Part shown: positions 2,193 through 19,420 of the stretch, in pieces | Position numbering within the stretch: position 1 is the stretch's first letter | How the letters are laid out: the number at the start of each line of letters is the position of its first letter | Assembly (NCBI RefSeq): GCF_054482525.1 | Contig: NZ_CM137006.1 | Strand: one strand, 5' to 3' | DNA: 64,000 nucleotides | Program-made: the position numbers and the translations under genes | Notes under the pieces: model-generated | Databases searched by the model: none | What the model was told of the DNA's origin: nothing | What the model saw: the letters and a program-made list of their open reading frames with translations, nothing else

Positions 2193-3047
2193 ATGACTGA
2201 CAAAATGCAAAGTTTAGCTTTAGCCCCTGTTGGCAACCTGGATTCCTACATCCGGGCAGCTAACGCGTGGCCGATGTTGTCGGCTGACGAGGAGCGGGCG
2301 CTGGCTGAAAAGCTGCATTACCATGGCGATCTGGAAGCAGCTAAAACGCTGATCCTGTCTCACCTGCGGTTTGTTGTTCATATTGCTCGTAATTATGCGG
2401 GCTATGGCCTGCCACAGGCGGATTTGATTCAGGAAGGTAACATCGGCCTGATGAAAGCAGTGCGCCGTTTTAACCCGGAAGTGGGTGTGCGCCTGGTCTC
2501 CTTCGCCGTCCACTGGATCAAAGCAGAGATCCACGAATACGTTCTGCGTAACTGGCGTATCGTCAAAGTTGCGACCACCAAAGCGCAGCGCAAACTGTTC
2601 TTCAACCTGCGTAAAACCAAGCAGCGTCTGGGCTGGTTTAACCAGGATGAAGTCGAAATGGTGGCCCGTGAACTGGGCGTAACCAGCAAAGACGTACGTG
2701 AGATGGAGTCGCGTATGGCGGCACAGGACATGACCTTTGACCTGTCTTCCGACGACGATTCCGATAGCCAGCCGATGGCTCCGGTGCTCTATCTGCAGGA
2801 TAAATCATCTAACTTTGCTGACGGCATCGAAGATGATAACTGGGAAGAGCAGGCGGCAAACCGTCTGACCGACGCGATGCAAGGTCTGGACGAGCGTAGC
2901 CAGGATATCATCCGCGCGCGCTGGCTGGATGAAGACAACAAGTCCACGTTGCAGGAACTGGCTGACCGTTACGGTGTTTCCGCTGAGCGTGTGCGCCAGC
3001 TGGAAAAGAACGCGATGAAAAAACTTCGCGCTGCCATTGAAGCGTAA
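2193..3047 (+). CDS. rpoH: RNA polymerase heat-shock sigma factor sigma-32
   Basis: 284-aa [54 protein letters not shown]; canonical length. Confidence 0.97.
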
Positions 3048-3066
3048 TTTCCGCTACTCAGCAGAG

Positions 3067-3100
3067 AACCCTGGATGAGAATCCGGGGTTTTTGTTTTTT
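3067..3100 (+). terminator. rho-independent terminator after rpoH
   Basis: Stem aaccctgg / ccggggtt followed by a T-run (tttttgtttttt). Confidence 0.7.
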
Positions 3101-3318
3101 GGACCTCTGCAATAATCAGTTTCCCCCTCCGGCAAAACGCCAATCCCCACGCAGATTGTTAATAAACTGTCAAAATAGCTATTCCAATATCATAAAAATG
3201 GGGTATGTTTTAGCAGAGTATGCTGCTAAAGCACGGGTAGTCATGCATAAAACGAAATAAAGTGCTGAATCACAACACCACAACACACGTAATAACCAGA
3301 AGAATGGGGATTCTCAGG

Positions 3319-4422
3319 ATGAATATAAAGGGTAAAGCGTTACTGGCAGGATGTATCGCGCTGGCATTCAGCAATATGGCTCTGGCAGAAGATATTAAAG
3401 TCGCGGTCGTGGGCGCGATGTCTGGTCCGGTGGCCCAGTACGGTGACCAGGAGTTCACTGGCGCAGAGCAGGCAGTAGCGGATATCAATGCTAAAGGTGG
3501 TATCAAAGGCAACAAACTGCAAATCGTAAAATATGACGATGCCTGTGACCCGAAACAGGCGGTTGCGGTGGCGAACAAAGTCGTTAACGACGGCATTAAA
3601 TATGTGATTGGTCACCTCTGTTCTTCATCAACGCAGCCAGCGTCAGACATCTATGAAGATGAAGGCATTTTAATGATCACCCCAGCGGCAACCGCGCCGG
3701 AGCTGACCGCCCGTGGCTATCAGCTGATCCTGCGCACTACCGGCCTGGACTCCGACCAGGGGCCGACGGCGGCGAAATATATTCTTGAGAAAGTGAAACC
3801 GCAGCGTATTGCTATCGTCCACGACAAACAGCAGTACGGCGAAGGTCTGGCGCGTGCGGTGCAGGACGGCCTGAAGAAAGGCAATGCTAACGTGGTGTTC
3901 TTTGATGGTATCACCGCTGGGGAAAAAGATTTCTCAACGCTGGTGGCGCGTCTGAAAAAAGAGAATATCGACTTCGTTTACTACGGCGGTTATCACCCGG
4001 AAATGGGGCAGATCCTGCGTCAGGCACGCGCGGCAGGGCTGAAAACTCAGTTTATGGGGCCGGAAGGCGTAGCTAACGTCTCGCTGTCTAACATTGCGGG
4101 CGAATCAGCGGAAGGGCTGCTGGTGACCAAGCCGAAGAACTACGATCAGGTTCCGGCGAACAAACCCATTGTTGATGCGATCAAAGCGAAAAAACAGGAC
4201 CCAAGCGGCGCATTCGTTTGGACCACCTACGCCGCGCTGCAATCTTTGCAGGCGGGCCTGAATCAGTCTGACGATCCGGCAGAAATCGCCAAATACCTGA
4301 AAGCGAACTCCGTGGATACCGTGATGGGACCGCTGACCTGGGATGAGAAAGGCGATCTGAAAGGCTTTGAGTTCGGCGTATTTGACTGGCACGCCAACGG
4401 CACGGCGACCGATGCGAAGTAA
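3319..4422 (+). CDS. livJ: Leu/Ile/Val periplasmic binding protein LivJ
   Basis: Track ORF 3262..4422 trimmed to [23 protein letters not shown] signal peptide (367 aa). Confidence 0.93.
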
Positions 4423-15320: not shown

Positions 15321-16391
15321 ATGGCAGGACTGAAATTACAGGCAGTAACCAAAAGCTGGGATGGCAAAACCCAGGTCATTAAACCGCTGACCCTTGATGT
15401 GGCGGATGGCGAATTTATCGTGATGGTCGGGCCGTCTGGCTGCGGGAAATCGACGTTATTGCGAATGGTGGCCGGACTGGAGCGGGTAACGACGGGCGAT
15501 ATCTGGATCGACCGCAAGCGTGTCACCGAAATGGAGCCGAAAGATCGCGGGATTGCGATGGTGTTTCAGAACTACGCGCTTTATCCGCATATGAGCGTCG
15601 AAGAAAACATGGCGTGGGGGCTGAAAATTCGCGGCATGGGCAAGCAGCAAATTGCCGAGCGCGTTAAAGAAGCGGCGCGCATTCTGGAGCTGGACGGCCT
15701 GCTTAAGCGCCGCCCGCGTGAGCTATCTGGCGGTCAGCGTCAGCGTGTGGCGATGGGGCGTGCGATTGTGCGTGAGCCGGCAGTGTTCCTGTTTGATGAG
15801 CCGCTCTCTAACCTCGATGCCAAGCTGCGCGTACAGATGCGTCTTGAACTGCAACAGCTGCACCGTCGCCTGAAAACGACTTCACTCTACGTTACTCACG
15901 ATCAGGTTGAGGCGATGACGCTCGCCCAGCGAGTAATGGTGATGAACGGCGGCGTTGCCGAACAGATTGGCACGCCAGTTGAAGTCTACGAAAAGCCCGC
16001 CAGCCTGTTTGTGGCGAGTTTTATTGGCAGTCCGGCGATGAATCTGCTGACAGGCCGCGTGAATAATGAAGGCACGCATTTTGAACTGGACGGCGGTATC
16101 GTGCTACCGCTAAACGGTGGCTACCGTCAGTATGCCGGGCGTAAAATGACTCTCGGCATTCGCCCGGAACATATTGCGCTAAGCTCGCAGGCAGAAGGCG
16201 GCGTACCGCTGGTGATGGACACGCTGGAGATCCTCGGCGCTGATAATCTGGCGCACGGACGCTGGGGCGAACAGAAGCTGGTGGTGCGACTGGCGCATCA
16301 GGAGCGCCCGACGGCAGGCAGCACGCTGTGGCTGCATCTGCCGGAAAATCAGCTGCATCTTTTTGATGGTGAAACAGGACAACGAGTATGA
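15321..16391 (+). CDS. ugpC: sn-glycerol-3-phosphate ABC ATPase UgpC
   Basis: Track ORF 15282..16391 trimmed to [15 protein letters not shown] (356 aa); Walker [10 protein letters not shown]. Confidence 0.93.
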
Positions 16392-17131
16392 GTAACTGGC
16401 CTTATCCCCGCATCGTCGCCCATCGTGGCGGCGGTAAACTGGCCCCGGAAAACACCCTGGCGGCAATCGACGTGGGGGCAAAATACGGTCATAAGATGAT
16501 CGAATTTGACGCGAAGTTATCGAAAGATGGCGAGATCTTCCTGCTCCATGACGACAATCTCGAACGTACCAGCAACGGCTGGGGCGTCGCGGGTGAACTG
16601 AACTGGCAGGATTTACTGCGCGTGGATGCGGGCAGTTGGTACAGCAAAGCGTTTAAAGGTGAGCCGCTGCCGTTGCTTTCGCAGGTGGCGGAACGCTGTC
16701 GTGAACACGGGATGATGGCGAATATCGAAATCAAGCCCACCACTGGCACCGGGCCATTAACGGGCAAAATGGTGGCGCTGGCGGCACGCGAACTGTGGGC
16801 CGATATGACGCCGCCGCTGCTGTCATCGTTTGAGATTGATGCTTTAGAAGCTGCACAACAGGCTGCACCGGAACTGCCGCGCGGTTTGTTGTTGGATGAG
16901 TGGCGCGACGACTGGCGAGAACTGACCGCGCGACTGGGCTGCGTCTCTATTCATCTCAATCATAAGTTGCTTGATAAAGCGCGAGTGATGCAGTTGAAAG
17001 ACGCCGGATTACGGATTCTGGTTTATACCGTCAATAAACCCCAGCGCGCGGCAGAGTTGCTGCGCTGGGGCGTGGATTGCATCTGCACCGATGCGATTGA
17101 CGTGATTGGTCCGAACTTTACGGCCCAATAG
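16388..17131 (+). CDS. ugpQ: glycerophosphodiester phosphodiesterase UgpQ
   Basis: 247 aa; HR..G..PENT motif of the GDPD family. Confidence 0.93.
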
Positions 17132-17558
17132 TTTTCAACGGAATGTCAGGCTGCGGCGTGCTGGGCTGATTCAGCATGTCGCCGTTTCTCCTCTCCGGCA
17201 GCATATGCTGCTGATTCAACGAACTATCCGGATTACGGTTGCTGTTTAACATCCCGCCGTTGGTGTTGGGCAGCATTTGCTGCCGGGCGGGATTTCGCTC
17301 CCCCGGCTGCGACTGCAACACCCGCTGGGAGTTGTTGTTTATCTGGTTTTCTAAATGCTGCTGTTGCAGCTGCGTTTGCGTTTTCAGTTGCTGGTTCAGC
17401 ATCCCTTTTTGCTGGATTTGCTGCGTCTGCATTTGAGTCTGCATCCGCTGCTGGCTGGGGATCTGATATCCCGGCTGGTTGGGGTTGTTCAGAGTATTAA
17501 TGGGCTGTGCAAAGCCGACAAACGGCAGGAGTGCCGTAAGAATCAGAAGTCGTTTCAT
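17118..17558 (-). CDS. yhhA: Gln-rich secreted low-complexity protein YhhA
   Basis: 146-aa ORF with signal peptide [17 protein letters not shown] followed by Q-rich repeats; convergent overlap with ugpQ. Confidence 0.85.
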
Positions 17559-17677
17559 CGCGTATCCTCCTCTGAAGATATCCTTTAAGTTTACTCGCTT
17601 CCCGGCAAAACGATGATTAATTCAGAGTTATATACCAGGCTTAGCTGGGGTTGCCCCTTAATCTCTGGAGAATAACG

Positions 17678-19420
17678 ATGATAAAACCGACGTTTTTACG
17701 CCGGGTGGCCATTGCTGCTCTGCTCTCAGGAAGTTGTTTTAGCGCCGCCGCCGCGCCTCCTCCGCCACCTGTTTCTTATGGCGTGGAGGAAGATGTCTTC
17801 CATCCGGTACGCGCGAAACAGGGGATGGTGGCGTCTGTAGATGCTACTGCCACTCAGGTGGGGGTGGATATCCTCAAGGAGGGCGGGAATGCCGTTGATG
17901 CCGCCGTGGCTGTGGGCTACGCGCTGGCGGTAACGCATCCGCAGGCAGGGAATCTGGGCGGTGGTGGTTTTATGCTGATCCGCTCGAAAAATGGCAATAC
18001 CACCGCTATCGATTTCCGCGAAATGGCACCCGCCAAAGCGACCCGCGATATGTTCCTCGATGACCAGGGCAACCCGGACAGCAAAAAATCACTCACTTCG
18101 CATCTGGCCTCCGGTACGCCAGGTACGGTCGCAGGTTTCTCGCAGGCGCTGGAGAAGTACGGCACCATGCCGTTAAATAAAGTGGTGCAGCCGGCGTTTA
18201 AACTGGCACGCGATGGTTTTATCGTTAATGACGCGCTGGCTGACGATCTCAAAACCTACGGTAGCGAAGTGTTGCCGAATCACGAAAACAGCAAGGCTAT
18301 CTTCTGGAAAGAGGGCGCGCCGCTGAAAAAGGGCGACAAGCTGGTGCAGGCGAACCTGGCAAAGAGCCTGGAGATGATTGCCGAAAACGGCCCGGACGAA
18401 TTCTACAAAGGCACAATAGCGGAGCAGATCGCTCAGGAGATGCAGAAAAACGGTGGCTTGATCACTAAAGAAGATTTAGCGGCGTATAAAGCGGTCGAAC
18501 GTACACCGATTAGCGGCGAATATCGCGGGTATCAGGTTTACTCGATGCCACCGCCATCTTCCGGTGGGATTCATATCGTGCAGATCCTCAATATCCTGGA
18601 AAACTTCGATATGCAGAAATACGGCTTTGGCAGCGCCGATGCGATGCAAATCATGGCAGAAGCGGAGAAATACGCCTACGCCGACCGCTCGGAATATCTT
18701 GGCGATCCGGATTTTGTGAAAGTCCCGTGGCAGGCGCTGACCAATAAAGCCTATGCCAAATCTATTGCCGATCAAATCGATATCAATAAAGCGAAGCCAT
18801 CCAGCGAAATTCGCCCCGGCAAGCTTGCGCCTTATGAGAGTAATCAAACTACCCATTACTCAGTGGTGGATAAAGACGGCAACGCGGTAGCGGTGACCTA
18901 TACGCTGAACACCACCTTCGGTACGGGCATTGTCGCGGGTGATAGCGGTATTCTGCTTAATAACCAAATGGATGATTTCTCCGCCAAACCTGGCGTACCG
19001 AACGTTTACGGGCTGGTGGGCGGTGACGCCAACGCGGTCGGGCCGAATAAACGCCCGCTGTCGTCGATGTCCCCAACCATTGTGGTGAAAGACGGTAAAA
19101 CCTGGCTGGTTACCGGTAGCCCTGGCGGGAGCCGGATTATCACCACCGTGCTGCAAATGGTAGTGAATAGTATCGATTATGGCATGAACGTCGCCGAAGC
19201 GACCAATGCGCCGCGTTTCCACCATCAGTGGTTGCCGGACGAGCTGCGTGTCGAAAAAGGGTTTAGCCCGGATACGATCAAGCTGCTGGAAGCAAAAGGT
19301 CAGAAAGTGGCGCTGAAAGAGGCGATGGGCAGTACACAAAGCATTATGGTTGGGCCTGACGGTGAGCTGTACGGTGCATCTGACCCGCGCTCGGTAGATG
19401 ATTTAACGGCGGGGTATTAA
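17678..19420 (+). CDS. ggt: gamma-glutamyltranspeptidase
   Basis: Track ORF 17651..19420 trimmed to MIKPTFLRRVAIAALLSGSCFSAAAA (580 aa); conserved Thr-containing TTHYSV autoprocessing region. Confidence 0.94.
   Translation: MIKPTFLRRVAIAALLSGSCFSAAAAPPPPPVSYGVEEDVFHPVRAKQGMVASVDATATQVGVDILKEGGNAVDAAVAVGYALAVTHPQAGNLGGGGFMLIRSKNGNTTAIDFREMAPAKATRDMFLDDQGNPDSKKSLTSHLASGTPGTVAGFSQALEKYGTMPLNKVVQPAFKLARDGFIVNDALADDLKTYGSEVLPNHENSKAIFWKEGAPLKKGDKLVQANLAKSLEMIAENGPDEFYKGTIAEQIAQEMQKNGGLITKEDLAAYKAVERTPISGEYRGYQVYSMPPPSSGGIHIVQILNILENFDMQKYGFGSADAMQIMAEAEKYAYADRSEYLGDPDFVKVPWQALTNKAYAKSIADQIDINKAKPSSEIRPGKLAPYESNQTTHYSVVDKDGNAVAVTYTLNTTFGTGIVAGDSGILLNNQMDDFSAKPGVPNVYGLVGGDANAVGPNKRPLSSMSPTIVVKDGKTWLVTGSPGGSRIITTVLQMVVNSIDYGMNVAEATNAPRFHHQWLPDELRVEKGFSPDTIKLLEAKGQKVALKEAMGSTQSIMVGPDGELYGASDPRSVDDLTAGY

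What the first reader, a model, noticed from the sequence alone, without database searches (positions are those of the whole stretch)
17118..17558. yhhA encodes a signal-peptide protein dominated by Gln-rich low-complexity repeats
The product is almost entirely Q/N/P-rich repeats ([27 protein letters not shown]) after a cleavable signal peptide. The underlying CAG/CTG repetition makes the locus a plausible site of length polymorphism; function is unknown.
Basis: seen in the sequence. Interest (0 to 1): 0.2.

Follow-up and report, generated by a model that had tools for sequence, protein, structure and literature searches.

The report
yhhA: exported Gln-rich stress protein
This is the already-annotated E. 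coli gene yhhA, which encodes a small exported glutamine-rich protein of unknown function; its glutamine-rich part is strongly conserved, not an unstable repeat, and the gene has the same length in about 99.9% of strains, so the finding is ordinary.

Summary
The ORF is real and lies exactly at 17118-17558 on the minus strand (146 aa). It is yhhA (Pfam DUF2756, NCBIfam PRK10350), between ugpQ and ggt. The signal peptide is well supported: a K/R n-region, a 13-residue hydrophobic core, and Ala at -1 in 53 of 53 homologues. Gln enrichment is real (22% of the mature protein; Q+N 36%). "Almost entirely repeats" and "CAG/CTG repetition" are overstated. Tandem Repeats Finder finds nothing, the longest CAG run is 2 units, only residues 35-72 are low-entropy, and internal repeats do not clearly beat shuffles. 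Length is essentially fixed. 5,424 of 5,426 complete E. coli genomes carry the gene, all 98 sampled full-coverage matches have the reference length, and at most about 0.2% can carry indels. Rare in-frame alleles do exist (27 distinct events, 96-163 aa). They are tandem duplications, or deletions between short dispersed direct repeats. The Gln-rich segment is the conserved core of the family: no non-synonymous changes among four E. coli alleles despite high synonymous divergence, invariant residues across genera, and a predicted long polar helix. Published data place the gene in general-stress and stationary-phase responses. The function remains unknown, and the gene is already known.

The parts
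17118..17558 (-). yhhA coding sequence (146 codons plus stop at 17118-17120)
   Evidence: ORF list; Pfam DUF2756 E = 1.1e-60; NCBIfam PRK10350 equivalog, 265 bits against a cut-off of 136; identical RefSeq sequence annotated yhhA.
17508..17558 (-). Signal peptide, residues 1-17 ([17 protein letters not shown]), with predicted SPase I cleavage between A17 and Q18
   Evidence: n-region K2/R3 and hydrophobic core at residues 4-16. In 53 homologues, position -1 is always Ala, position -3 is only A/S/C/V/G, and +1 Gln and +2 Pro are invariant, while the h-region varies but stays hydrophobic. No Cys, so no lipobox; no twin-arginine motif. Inferred from sequence rules; no SignalP run and no experiment.
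17460..17507 (-). Conserved mature N-terminal segment, residues 18-33 ([16 protein letters not shown])
   Evidence: Invariant Q18, P19, N21, N24, N25, P26 and N27 across 53 sequences; non-helical in the model.
17313..17459 (-). Gln-rich core, residues 34-82, predicted as a single long polar helix; contains the only low-entropy stretch (residues 35-72, nt 17343-17456) and most of the rare indel junctions
   Evidence: AlphaFold2 helix H34-82, pLDDT mostly ~68-76. Invariant residues across genera in A3: P34, Q37, R38, M43, Q46, Q47, K51, G52, M53, L54, Q56, Q61, Q65-Q67. The same core is kept in distant 87-117 aa relatives. No non-synonymous change in codons 30-85 in any of six E. coli allele pairs, despite pS 0.10-0.45. 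Entropy mask. Indel positions.
17121..17312 (-). C-terminal tail, residues 83-146, predicted disordered. Islands of conservation ([15 protein letters not shown], NGxML, [12 protein letters not shown]) are separated by variable, indel-rich linkers
   Evidence: pLDDT about 47-56 with no secondary structure. Conservation by block is 0.86-0.88 for the motifs against 0.34-0.63 for the linkers. The tail is absent from distant family members.
17565..17570 (-). Shine-Dalgarno sequence GGAGGA, 6 nt upstream of the ATG
   Evidence: Read directly from the sequence.
17559..17677 (.). 119-bp divergent intergenic region between yhhA and ggt, which must hold the yhhA promoter
   Evidence: Coordinates. The sigma-70 consensus scan found no site. 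A genomic SELEX study reports a sigma-S holoenzyme binding peak in the ggt/yhhA spacer of K-12 (PMC5493296). The promoter position was not mapped here.
17118..17131 (.). 14-nt convergent overlap of the 3' ends of yhhA and ugpQ
   Evidence: ORF coordinates; the same overlap is annotated in RefSeq genomes. yhhA-ugpQ is listed among convergent overlapping transcript pairs ('excludons') in PMC12288877.
17153..17182 (+). Terminator-like hairpin 22 nt downstream of the ugpQ stop codon, lying inside yhhA codons
   Evidence: Terminator scan: 13-pair stem with 7 G-C pairs, weak T tract. RNA fold -27.4 kcal/mol, z = -2.96, and 0 of 200 shuffles fold as well. Its function as the ugp operon terminator is inferred.

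Best explanation
yhhA is a genuine, expressed core gene of E. coli and related Enterobacteriaceae.

SHOWN OR STRONGLY SUPPORTED. It encodes a 146-aa precursor with a classical Sec signal peptide, predicted to be cut by signal peptidase I after Ala17. This would release a 129-aa, Cys-free, very hydrophilic protein into the periplasm. The mature protein has three parts:
- a short conserved Asn/Pro-rich N-terminus (residues 18-33);
- a Gln-rich segment (residues 34-82) predicted to form one long polar helix, which is the ancestral, sequence-conserved core of the DUF2756 family;
- a disordered tail (residues 83-146) with a few conserved short motifs, present only in the Enterobacteriaceae branch.

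The Gln-rich DNA is not a tandem repeat and not a contingency locus. Its short dispersed direct repeats occasionally cause in-frame duplications or deletions. These alleles stay at about 0.1% while the amino-acid sequence is held constant, so purifying selection acts on both sequence and length.

INFERRED. Published data include sigma-S holoenzyme binding in its promoter region, induction at entry to stationary phase, after acid shift, under LolCDE inhibition and across multiple stresses, and detection by proteomics alongside small periplasmic stress proteins. From these and the architecture, I infer that YhhA is a non-enzymatic envelope component of the general stress response. It would act by binding a partner through its polar helix and short tail motifs. 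The partner and the biochemical activity are unknown.
For: - Gene and family.
- Signal peptide: composition; cleavage-site conservation with Ala at -1 in 53/53, only small residues at -3, and invariant Q+1/P+2.
- Core gene: present in 5,424 of 5,426 complete genomes, always chromosomal.
- Purifying selection: 14 synonymous and 0 non-synonymous differences between the window and K-12 alleles; 0 non-synonymous changes in codons 30-85 in six pairs, with pS up to 0.45; many invariant Gln, Met and Asn residues across genera.
- Core of the family: distant 87-117 aa members keep the signal peptide plus the Gln-rich helix ending QRVLxSQPG, and remain 23-34% Gln.
- Structure: helix 34-82, the rest disordered.
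- Not a repeat locus.
- Fixed length.
- Rare indels at short repeats.
- Expression and regulation from papers: PMC5493296, PMC2241611, PMC2270276, PMC7824302, PMC5105897, PMC9501238.
- Protein detected: PMC9731836, PMC9927464, PMC4265081.
Against: - Export and cleavage rest on sequence rules and conservation only. No signal-peptide predictor or experiment was available.
- The structural model has modest confidence (mean pLDDT 59, pTM 0.26). The helix is not amphipathic and has no heptad periodicity, so how it would bind anything is unclear.
- The functional part (a stress-response binding protein) rests on expression correlations in transcriptome and proteome tables. No paper found reports a phenotype.
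- The sigma-70 scan found no promoter, and I did not map a sigma-S promoter.
- Rare alleles with large deletions (down to 96 aa) exist in isolates, so the full-length protein is not essential for viability.
Confidence: 0.7

Rival explanations
1. One reading: the Gln-codon repetition makes yhhA a length-polymorphic (contingency-like) locus whose product varies in length between strains.
For: 27 distinct in-frame indel events (96-163 aa) occur among E. coli sequences, mostly in the Gln-rich segment. The same 51-nt deletion lies on two SNP backgrounds. Length differs between species, from 122 to 160 aa.
Against: There is no tandem repeat and the longest CAG run is 2 units. At least 99.8% of 5,424 complete genomes have the 441-bp allele, and only 3 carry any known variant junction. 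Contingency loci show frequent, reversible, often frame-shifting changes in long homopolymer or short-unit tracts, and none is present here.
Confidence: 0.05
2. YhhA is a type III secreted effector of pathogenic E. coli whose clustered S/TQ and QS/T motifs mimic substrates of host ATM-family kinases (proposed in preprint 10.1101/364117).
For: [quoted passage not shown] I count 7 S/TQ and 4 QS/T motifs.
Against: The cited source could not be traced: the preprint's reference list is not held, and no paper in the library supports the claim. The protein has a conserved cleavable Sec signal peptide, which type III effectors lack. The gene is present in 5,424 of 5,426 E. coli genomes, including K-12, BL21 and MC4100 laboratory strains without a LEE type III system, and in many non-pathogenic genera. 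S/TQ motifs are expected by chance in a protein that is 22% Gln and 12% Ser+Thr.
Confidence: 0.03
3. YhhA is an exported prion-like or self-assembling Q/N-rich protein that forms amyloid, a gel or a condensate in the periplasm or on the cell surface.
For: It has 36 Q+N in an 80-residue window. That exceeds the threshold of 30 per 80 that I recall from Michelitsch and Weissman 2000 (from memory, not checked in a paper here). Gln-richness is conserved across the whole family. Much of the protein is predicted disordered.
Against: Prion-like domains usually tolerate sequence scrambling and evolve quickly. Here the exact sequence is conserved, with invariant residues across genera and no non-synonymous changes in E. 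coli. The segment is predicted helical, not beta-prone. No paper links yhhA to aggregation.
Confidence: 0.08
4. YhhA works with one of its neighbours: the periplasmic gamma-glutamyltranspeptidase Ggt (divergent, shared 119-bp control region) or the Ugp glycerophosphodiester system (convergent, overlapping ugpQ).
For: The ggt-yhhA-ugpQ arrangement is kept in E. coli and in some distant relatives (L009 and L012). Ggt and, by prediction, YhhA are both periplasmic. The yhhA and ugpQ transcripts overlap.
Against: ggt is absent next to the homologue in L010, and both neighbours are absent in L013. From general enzymology, Ggt needs a free gamma-glutamyl amino acid moiety, which protein-bound Gln does not provide (not tested here). 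Synteny within one bacterial family is weak evidence for a functional link.
Confidence: 0.07
5. The conserved Met residues (five ML[N/P] motifs plus MQTQMQTQ) make YhhA a periplasmic Cu(I)/Ag(I) or oxidant buffer, in the manner of Met/His-rich disordered proteins such as SilE and PcoE.
For: M43, M53, M119 and M128 are invariant, and M103 nearly so, among 53 close homologues. The protein is induced by several stresses.
Against: There are only 7 Met and 2 His in 129 residues. Met content falls to 1-3 in many distant family members while Gln-richness persists. A Pfam scan at E <= 1 found no metal-resistance family.
Confidence: 0.04

Closest known systems
YhhA / DUF2756 (Pfam PF10956; NCBIfam NF007675, PRK10350) of Escherichia coli K-12
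   Same: It is the same gene. The protein is 100% identical to the K-12-type allele. It matches the HMMs over their full length and has the same ugpQ-yhhA-ggt context.
   Different: Only 14 synonymous nucleotide differences from the K-12-type allele. The window allele is identical to that of strain PCN033, and only 5 genomes are >=99% identical to it.
Small sigma-S or envelope-stress induced periplasmic proteins of E. coli with no enzymatic domain (for example YmgD, ZraP, PsiF and Spy, which are listed alongside YhhA in proteomic tables)
   Same: Small size, Sec signal peptide, stress or stationary-phase induction, and co-detection in the same proteomic lists.
   Different: No sequence relationship: the Pfam scan at E <= 1 gives only DUF2756 plus two noise hits, and there is no solved relative. 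Extreme Gln content and the single predicted polar helix are specific to YhhA.
Eukaryotic Q/N-rich (prion-like) domains
   Same: Composition: 36 Q+N in 80 residues, with low sequence entropy over residues 35-72.
   Different: YhhA is exported by Sec, is conserved at the level of exact sequence, and is predicted helical. No self-propagating behaviour is known.
Trinucleotide-repeat and contingency loci
   Same: Gln codons are mostly CAG, and rare in-frame length changes occur.
   Different: No tandem array is present. Indels arise between dispersed repeats with only 3-9 nt of exact identity at the junctions read, and they stay at roughly 0.1% frequency.

Membership tests
DUF2756 / YhhA family (PF10956; NF007675) | HMM match above the curated cut-off over the full model | tested here: met
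   Pfam 202.9 bits against a cut-off of 21, model positions 1-105 of 105. NCBIfam equivalog 265 bits against a cut-off of 136, positions 1-145 of 145.
Sec-dependent, signal peptidase I-cleaved secretory protein | Positively charged n-region, hydrophobic h-region of about 10-15 residues, and small residues at -3 and -1 (not Pro at +1) | tested here: met
   K2/R3; h-region at residues 4-16; G15 at -3, A17 at -1, Q18 at +1. In 53 homologues, -1 is always Ala and -3 is only A/S/C/V/G. Applied by rule, not by a trained predictor.
Sec-dependent, signal peptidase I-cleaved secretory protein | Demonstrated export and cleavage | not testable with these tools
   Only indirect support: YhhA appears with periplasmic and outer-membrane proteins in proteomic lists (PMC9731836).
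Bacterial lipoprotein (signal peptidase II) | Lipobox with an invariant Cys at +1 | tested here: not met
   The E. coli protein has no Cys at all.
Tat-exported protein | Twin-arginine motif (S/T-R-R-x-F-L-K) in the n-region | tested here: not met
   The n-region is MKR, with no RR. In homologues, position 2 is K in 52 of 53 sequences.
Trinucleotide tandem repeat / contingency locus | A tandem array of several identical short units | tested here: not met
   TRF gave 0 rows at minimum score 30. The longest runs are CAG x2 and AAC x3.
Trinucleotide tandem repeat / contingency locus | Frequent length variation among strains | tested here: not met
   98 of 98 sampled full-coverage hits have the reference length. 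At most about 10 of 5,424 genomes can carry an indel, and 3 are confirmed.
Q/N-rich (prion-like) domain | At least 30 Gln+Asn in an 80-residue window (criterion recalled from Michelitsch and Weissman 2000, not re-read here) | tested here: met
   36 Q+N in residues 21-100.
Q/N-rich (prion-like) domain | Self-propagating aggregation or amyloid formation | not testable with these tools
   No experiment is available. Predicted helix and exact-sequence conservation argue against it.
Type III secretion effector | Distribution tied to strains with a virulence type III system, and no cleavable Sec signal | tested here: not met
   Present in 5,424 of 5,426 E. coli genomes, including K-12, BL21(DE3) and MC4100. 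Conserved Sec cleavage site.
Type III secretion effector | Type III-dependent secretion or translocation shown experimentally | not tested
   Asserted in preprint 10.1101/364117, but the source could not be traced.
Canonical coiled coil / amphipathic helix | Heptad (3.5-residue) hydrophobic periodicity or a high hydrophobic moment | tested here: not met
   Hydrophobic moment of 0.11 equals the shuffle mean (47% of shuffles are at least as high). The strongest hydrophobic period is about 5.1 residues, not 3.5-3.6.
Hydrophilins (criteria recalled from Garay-Arroyo et al. 2000: Gly > 6% and mean hydrophilicity > 1) | Gly above 6% and hydrophilicity above 1 | tested here: not met
   Gly is 7 of the 128-129 mature residues (about 5.5%), below the threshold. 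GRAVY is -1.39, so hydrophilicity is met.
Sigma-S (RpoS) general stress regulon | rpoS-dependent transcription from a sigma-S promoter | not tested
   Literature only: a sigma-S holoenzyme SELEX peak in the ggt/yhhA spacer (PMC5493296) and co-induction with rpoS (PMC2241611). No promoter was mapped here.

The most novel reading that the evidence does not exclude
YhhA could be a rare bacterial example of an exported Q/N-rich protein whose polar Gln helix self-associates, through Gln side-chain hydrogen bonding, into a higher-order assembly in the stationary-phase periplasm (a gel-like or condensate-like protective matrix). Length would be tightly selected because assembly depends on helix register. 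This would explain three things together: extreme Gln content, exact-sequence conservation, and the purging of recurrent duplications and deletions.
Probability: 0.06. Interest if true: 0.6.

Novelty: already known. Interest (0 to 1): 0.12.

Why it matters
It matters little for discovery, because yhhA is an annotated core gene in a recognised family of unknown function. Three modest points are worth keeping.

1. Low complexity does not mean unconstrained. The Gln-rich stretch is held constant at the amino-acid level while its synonymous sites diverge two- to three-fold faster than the regional baseline in two of three allele pairs.

2. Length is also conserved. Short dispersed repeats keep producing in-frame duplications and deletions, yet these stay near 0.1%. 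That gives a natural series of length alleles (96-163 aa) that could be used to probe function.

3. YhhA remains one of the few conserved, stress-induced, apparently periplasmic E. coli proteins with no phenotype. A published claim that it is a type III effector conflicts with its signal peptide and its universal distribution.

Tried and rejected
- Tandem-repeat detection (TRF, lowest threshold) and triplet-run counting found nothing, so the CAG/CTG repeat idea was rejected.
- Internal protein repeats: the self-alignment was only marginally above shuffles, so it was not pursued.
- Rfam scan of 16000-18500 at E <= 1: no RNA family.
- Sigma-70 promoter scan: no site. A manual look at the spacer gave only weak -10-like candidates, which I do not report as a promoter.
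- PDB sequence-profile search: no relative at E <= 1. I did not run fold searches because a single moderate-confidence helix gives meaningless matches.
- Amphipathic helix and coiled coil: rejected on hydrophobic moment and periodicity.
- Met-motif metal or oxidant buffer: weakened because Met is not conserved in distant members.
- Functional coupling to ggt: weakened by loci that lack ggt.
- Tracing the 'validated EPEC effector' statement: the preprint's reference list is not held, and a search for the EPEC secretome study found no paper supporting the claim.
- One paper's 'yhhZ/yhhA operon' (PMC12428005) refers to a different locus (probably a slip for yrhA) and is irrelevant.
- My own errors, corrected: I first placed the ggt start at 17690; it is the ATG at 17678. 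The first two protein alignments (A1, A2) used 17118-17555 and so lacked Met1, which shifts their residue numbers by one; A3 uses the correct coordinates.
- I did not run the costly genome contigs or metagenome scans, because the taxonomic range was clear enough.
Full report
WHAT IS THERE. Positions 17118..17558 on the minus strand hold an ATG-initiated ORF of 146 codons. A strong GGAGGA Shine-Dalgarno sequence lies 6 nt upstream of the ATG. The product matches Pfam DUF2756 (E = 1.1e-60, full model) and the NCBIfam equivalog PRK10350 (265 bits against a cut-off of 136). An identical sequence in RefSeq is annotated 'yhhA: DUF2756 family protein'.

The neighbourhood is the standard E. coli one:
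- ugpE, ugpC and ugpQ (16388..17131) lie on the plus strand.
- yhhA converges on ugpQ, and their 3' ends overlap by 14 nt.
- ggt (17678..19420) diverges from yhhA across a 119-bp spacer.

COMPOSITION AND 'REPEATS'. After the predicted signal peptide the protein is 22% Gln, 36% Gln+Asn and 47% Gln+Asn+Pro. It has no Cys or Trp and a single Ala.
- The Gln excess over the four neighbouring genes (3.6% Gln) has binomial P = 1.8e-15.
- Its best 80-residue window holds 36 Q+N. No other of the 152 open frames of >=100 codons in this 64-kb window exceeds 20.

The description 'almost entirely ... repeats' does not hold. An entropy filter marks only residues 35-72 (38 of 146 residues). The best internal self-alignment is z = 2.2 above composition-preserving shuffles, and 6 of 200 shuffles reach it. 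What recurs is a short motif, ML[N/P], five times.

At DNA level there is no tandem repeat. TRF returns nothing at its lowest threshold. The longest CAG run is two units and the longest triplet run is AAC x3, although 22 of 29 Gln codons are CAG. Only dispersed, imperfect direct repeats of 13-17 nt are present.

SIGNAL PEPTIDE. The N-terminus [17 protein letters not shown]|QP has the three regions of a Sec signal peptide:
- a basic n-region;
- a 13-residue hydrophobic core;
- small residues at -3 (Gly) and -1 (Ala).

It has no lipobox Cys and no twin-arginine motif. In 53 homologues the h-region varies but stays hydrophobic. Position -1 is Ala in all 53, position -3 is only A/S/C/V/G, and Gln+1 and Pro+2 are invariant. 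That is the expected signature of a conserved signal peptidase I site. No trained predictor or experiment was available, so export remains a strong inference.

Against 5,426 complete E. coli genomes, the gene is found in 5,424, always on the chromosome.
- All 39 evenly sampled full-length hits span exactly 441 bp in one ungapped piece.
- The one truncated case, strain A16, has a deletion that removes the 3' ends of both yhhA and ugpQ.
- Using only the 165-nt Gln-rich segment of the common K-12-type allele, 5,422 genomes cover at least 80% of it. All 59 sampled full-coverage rows span exactly 165 nt, and only 4 genomes fall in the 80-90% identity band expected for an indel.
- The 3' segment shows no sign of indels at all.

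So at most about 0.2% of finished genomes can carry a length variant.

The much larger protein collection does contain rare E. coli alleles of 96 to 163 aa. Aligned to the reference, they amount to 27 distinct in-frame events. Most lie within residues ~30-80, and a few deletions extend to residue ~115. The signal peptide and the last 30 residues are untouched. All five insertions are perfect tandem duplications of the adjoining 9-17 residues.

I fetched the DNA of three variants. All sit in the normal ggt-yhhA-ugpQ context, and two of the three recur in several independent assemblies (P0002 on 5 contigs, P0022 on 15; P0092 on 2). Their junctions are as follows:
- The 51-nt deletion lies between imperfect copies of a ~10-nt sequence (GCAGACKCAG and GCAAACGCAG). 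It is found on two different SNP backgrounds.
- The 150-nt deletion lies between two perfect CAGCAGCAT copies.
- The 33-nt insertion is a head-to-tail duplication.

A single query made of all 27 novel junctions matched only three finished genomes. These are three CDC Shiga-toxin strains that share the 30-nt [10 protein letters not shown] duplication. The annotated 471-bp gene in one of them translates to an intact 156-aa protein.

My reading is that short dispersed repeats cause occasional slippage or microhomology-mediated events, and that these alleles do not spread. Two caveats apply. Frameshifting events would not have been retrieved as full-length proteins, so 'all in-frame' is partly an ascertainment effect. 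Also, about half of the variant alleles are known only from metagenome or read-archive assemblies.

Between species, length ranges from 122 to 160 aa among the 53 aligned homologues, mostly through indels in the C-terminal half.

THE GLN-RICH SEGMENT IS THE CONSERVED CORE.
- The window allele and the K-12-type allele differ at 14 synonymous and 0 non-synonymous sites.
- Across four alleles (six pairs), codons 30-85 never change an amino acid, although their pS reaches 0.25-0.45 in five of the six pairs.
- Across genera, residues 18-80 are 82-87% conserved by column. Invariant positions in A3 include A17, Q18, P19, N21, N24-N27, P34, Q37, R38, M43, Q46, Q47, K51-L54, Q56, Q61 and Q65-Q67.
- A profile search of 1.84 billion representative proteins finds only 80 matches, many of them fragments. 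The family is therefore small and narrow.
- The more distant full-length members (87-117 aa) retain the signal peptide, the 'NPSQQRMQxQM' start and a Gln-rich stretch ending 'QRVLxSQPG'. They are 23-34% Gln and lack the C-terminal tail.

AlphaFold2 with the 53-sequence alignment predicts one long helix over residues 34-82 (pLDDT mostly ~68-76), with everything else unstructured (mean pLDDT 59, pTM 0.26). The helix is not amphipathic, since its hydrophobic moment equals the shuffle mean. Its hydrophobic residues recur about every 5.1 residues rather than every 3.5. No solved structure is related by sequence.

REGULATION AND EXPRESSION (FROM PAPERS, NOT TESTED HERE).
- A genomic SELEX study reports sigma-S holoenzyme binding in the ggt/yhhA spacer (PMC5493296).
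- yhhA rises with rpoS at the transition to stationary phase in O157:H7 (PMC2241611).
- It rises after rapid acid shift (PMC2270276; PMC7824302).
- It rises 5.6- to 9.9-fold on LolCDE inhibition, together with colanic-acid and general-stress genes (PMC5105897).
- It rises across several stress types in a meta-analysis (PMC9501238).
- The protein itself is detected by mass spectrometry in E. coli and Salmonella (PMC9731836; PMC9927464; PMC4265081).
- yhhA-ugpQ is listed among convergent overlapping transcript pairs (PMC12288877).

My sigma-70 scan found no promoter, and Rfam found no RNA family. No paper reports a phenotype.

MOST LIKELY MECHANISM. Shown or strongly supported: yhhA is a real, expressed, core, vertically inherited gene. 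Its product has a conserved Sec signal peptide, and its Gln-rich part is under strong purifying selection for both sequence and length. Inferred: the mature protein is a small periplasmic, non-enzymatic component of the general and envelope stress response. It would act by binding a partner through a polar helix and a few conserved tail motifs. The partner and the activity are unknown. I put about 0.9 on export, about 0.6 on a stress-related envelope role, and no more than 0.3 on any specific biochemical mode.

RIVALS.
- The contingency-locus reading fails on the absence of a tandem tract and on near-invariant length.
- The type III effector proposal (preprint 10.1101/364117) conflicts with the cleavable Sec signal and with the gene's presence in essentially every E. 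coli, laboratory strains included. Its cited evidence could not be traced.
- A prion-like assembly is compositionally allowed, but exact-sequence conservation and the predicted helix do not favour it.
- A functional link to ggt or ugp is weakened by homologues that lack those neighbours.
- A Met-based metal or oxidant buffer is weakened because Met is not conserved in distant members.

AN UNEXPLAINED DETAIL. Whole-gene synonymous divergence (pS 0.12-0.15) equals that of ugpE, ugpC and ugpQ (0.14-0.17), but it is unevenly spread within yhhA.
- pS is 0.25-0.42 in codons 30-85. Fisher P against the neighbouring genes is 2e-4, 0.13 and 0.015 for the three pairs.
- pS is zero in codons 86-146 among three alleles.
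- The population data agree. The Gln-rich segment is >=99% identical to K-12 in 47% of genomes and 90-95% identical in about 600. The 3' segment is >=99% identical in 79% and never below 95%.

The quiet 3' part contains a stable hairpin (17153-17182; -27.4 kcal/mol, z = -3.0) placed 22 nt after the ugpQ stop codon. It is plausibly the ugp operon terminator, and the same region holds the 14-nt overlap with ugpQ. Nucleic-acid constraints, a recombination mosaic, or conversion among the short repeats could each contribute. I did not resolve this.

VERDICT. The object is an already known gene of unknown function, and interest is low.

Noticed in passing
window 17313-17459 versus 17121-17312 (yhhA codons 30-85 versus 86-146): Synonymous diversity is very uneven inside yhhA. 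pS is 0.25-0.42 in the Gln-rich segment (two to three times the regional baseline of 0.14-0.17) with no amino-acid change. It is zero across codons 86-146 among three alleles. Identity bands from 5,400 genomes show the same contrast.
   Followed up: partly
window 17153-17182 (+): A stable terminator-like hairpin (-27.4 kcal/mol, z = -3.0, weak U tract) lies 22 nt after the ugpQ stop codon, inside yhhA codons. It may be the ugp operon terminator, and may constrain synonymous sites of yhhA.
   Followed up: partly
window 17118-17131: yhhA and ugpQ overlap convergently by 14 nt, so neither gene has room for its own terminator outside the other's coding sequence. The pair is listed among overlapping convergent transcripts in PMC12288877.
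   Followed up: partly
window about 17741-17770 (ggt codons about 22-31, GCCGCCGCCGCGCCTCCTCCGCCACCT): The neighbouring ggt has a 9-nt indel in the Ala/Pro-rich end of its signal peptide. It is 580 aa in the window and K-12-type strains and 577 aa in strain SaT040, and a 581-aa form was seen in other assemblies. In this small sample ggt varies in length more visibly than yhhA.
   Followed up: partly
window 17651 versus 17678: The mechanical ORF list starts ggt at an upstream TTG (17651). The annotated start that matches K-12 is the ATG at 17678 (MIKPTFLRR...).
   Followed up: yes
L001 (E. coli strain A16, NZ_CP028758.1), locus 3001-3817: This strain has a deletion that removes the 3' ends of both yhhA and ugpQ. 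ugpE and ugpA are also annotated as frameshifted, so the whole ugp-yhhA region looks decayed in this otter isolate.
   Followed up: no
L004/L006 versus L005, positions 1501-1890: The same 51-nt yhhA deletion (129-aa allele) occurs on two different SNP backgrounds. This suggests either recurrent mutation at the same short repeats or transfer by recombination.
   Followed up: partly
L014 (E. coli 2013C-4187), positions 471-941; also NZ_CP027555.1 and NZ_CP027338.1: Three finished CDC Shiga-toxin E. coli genomes share a 156-aa YhhA with a tandem [10 protein letters not shown] duplication. They are probably one clone.
   Followed up: partly
L013, positions 4001-4288: The most distant DUF2756 member examined (95 aa) is not next to ugpQ or ggt. 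Its neighbours match ppiA, yhhQ, tusA, an HSP20 gene, yhhN and yhhL by Pfam family, which from memory lie in the same general chromosomal region as in E. coli.
   Followed up: no
window 17118-17558: The window's yhhA allele is 100% identical only to strain PCN033, and only 5 of 5,424 genomes are >=99% identical to it. The window therefore comes from PCN033 or a very close relative.
   Followed up: no
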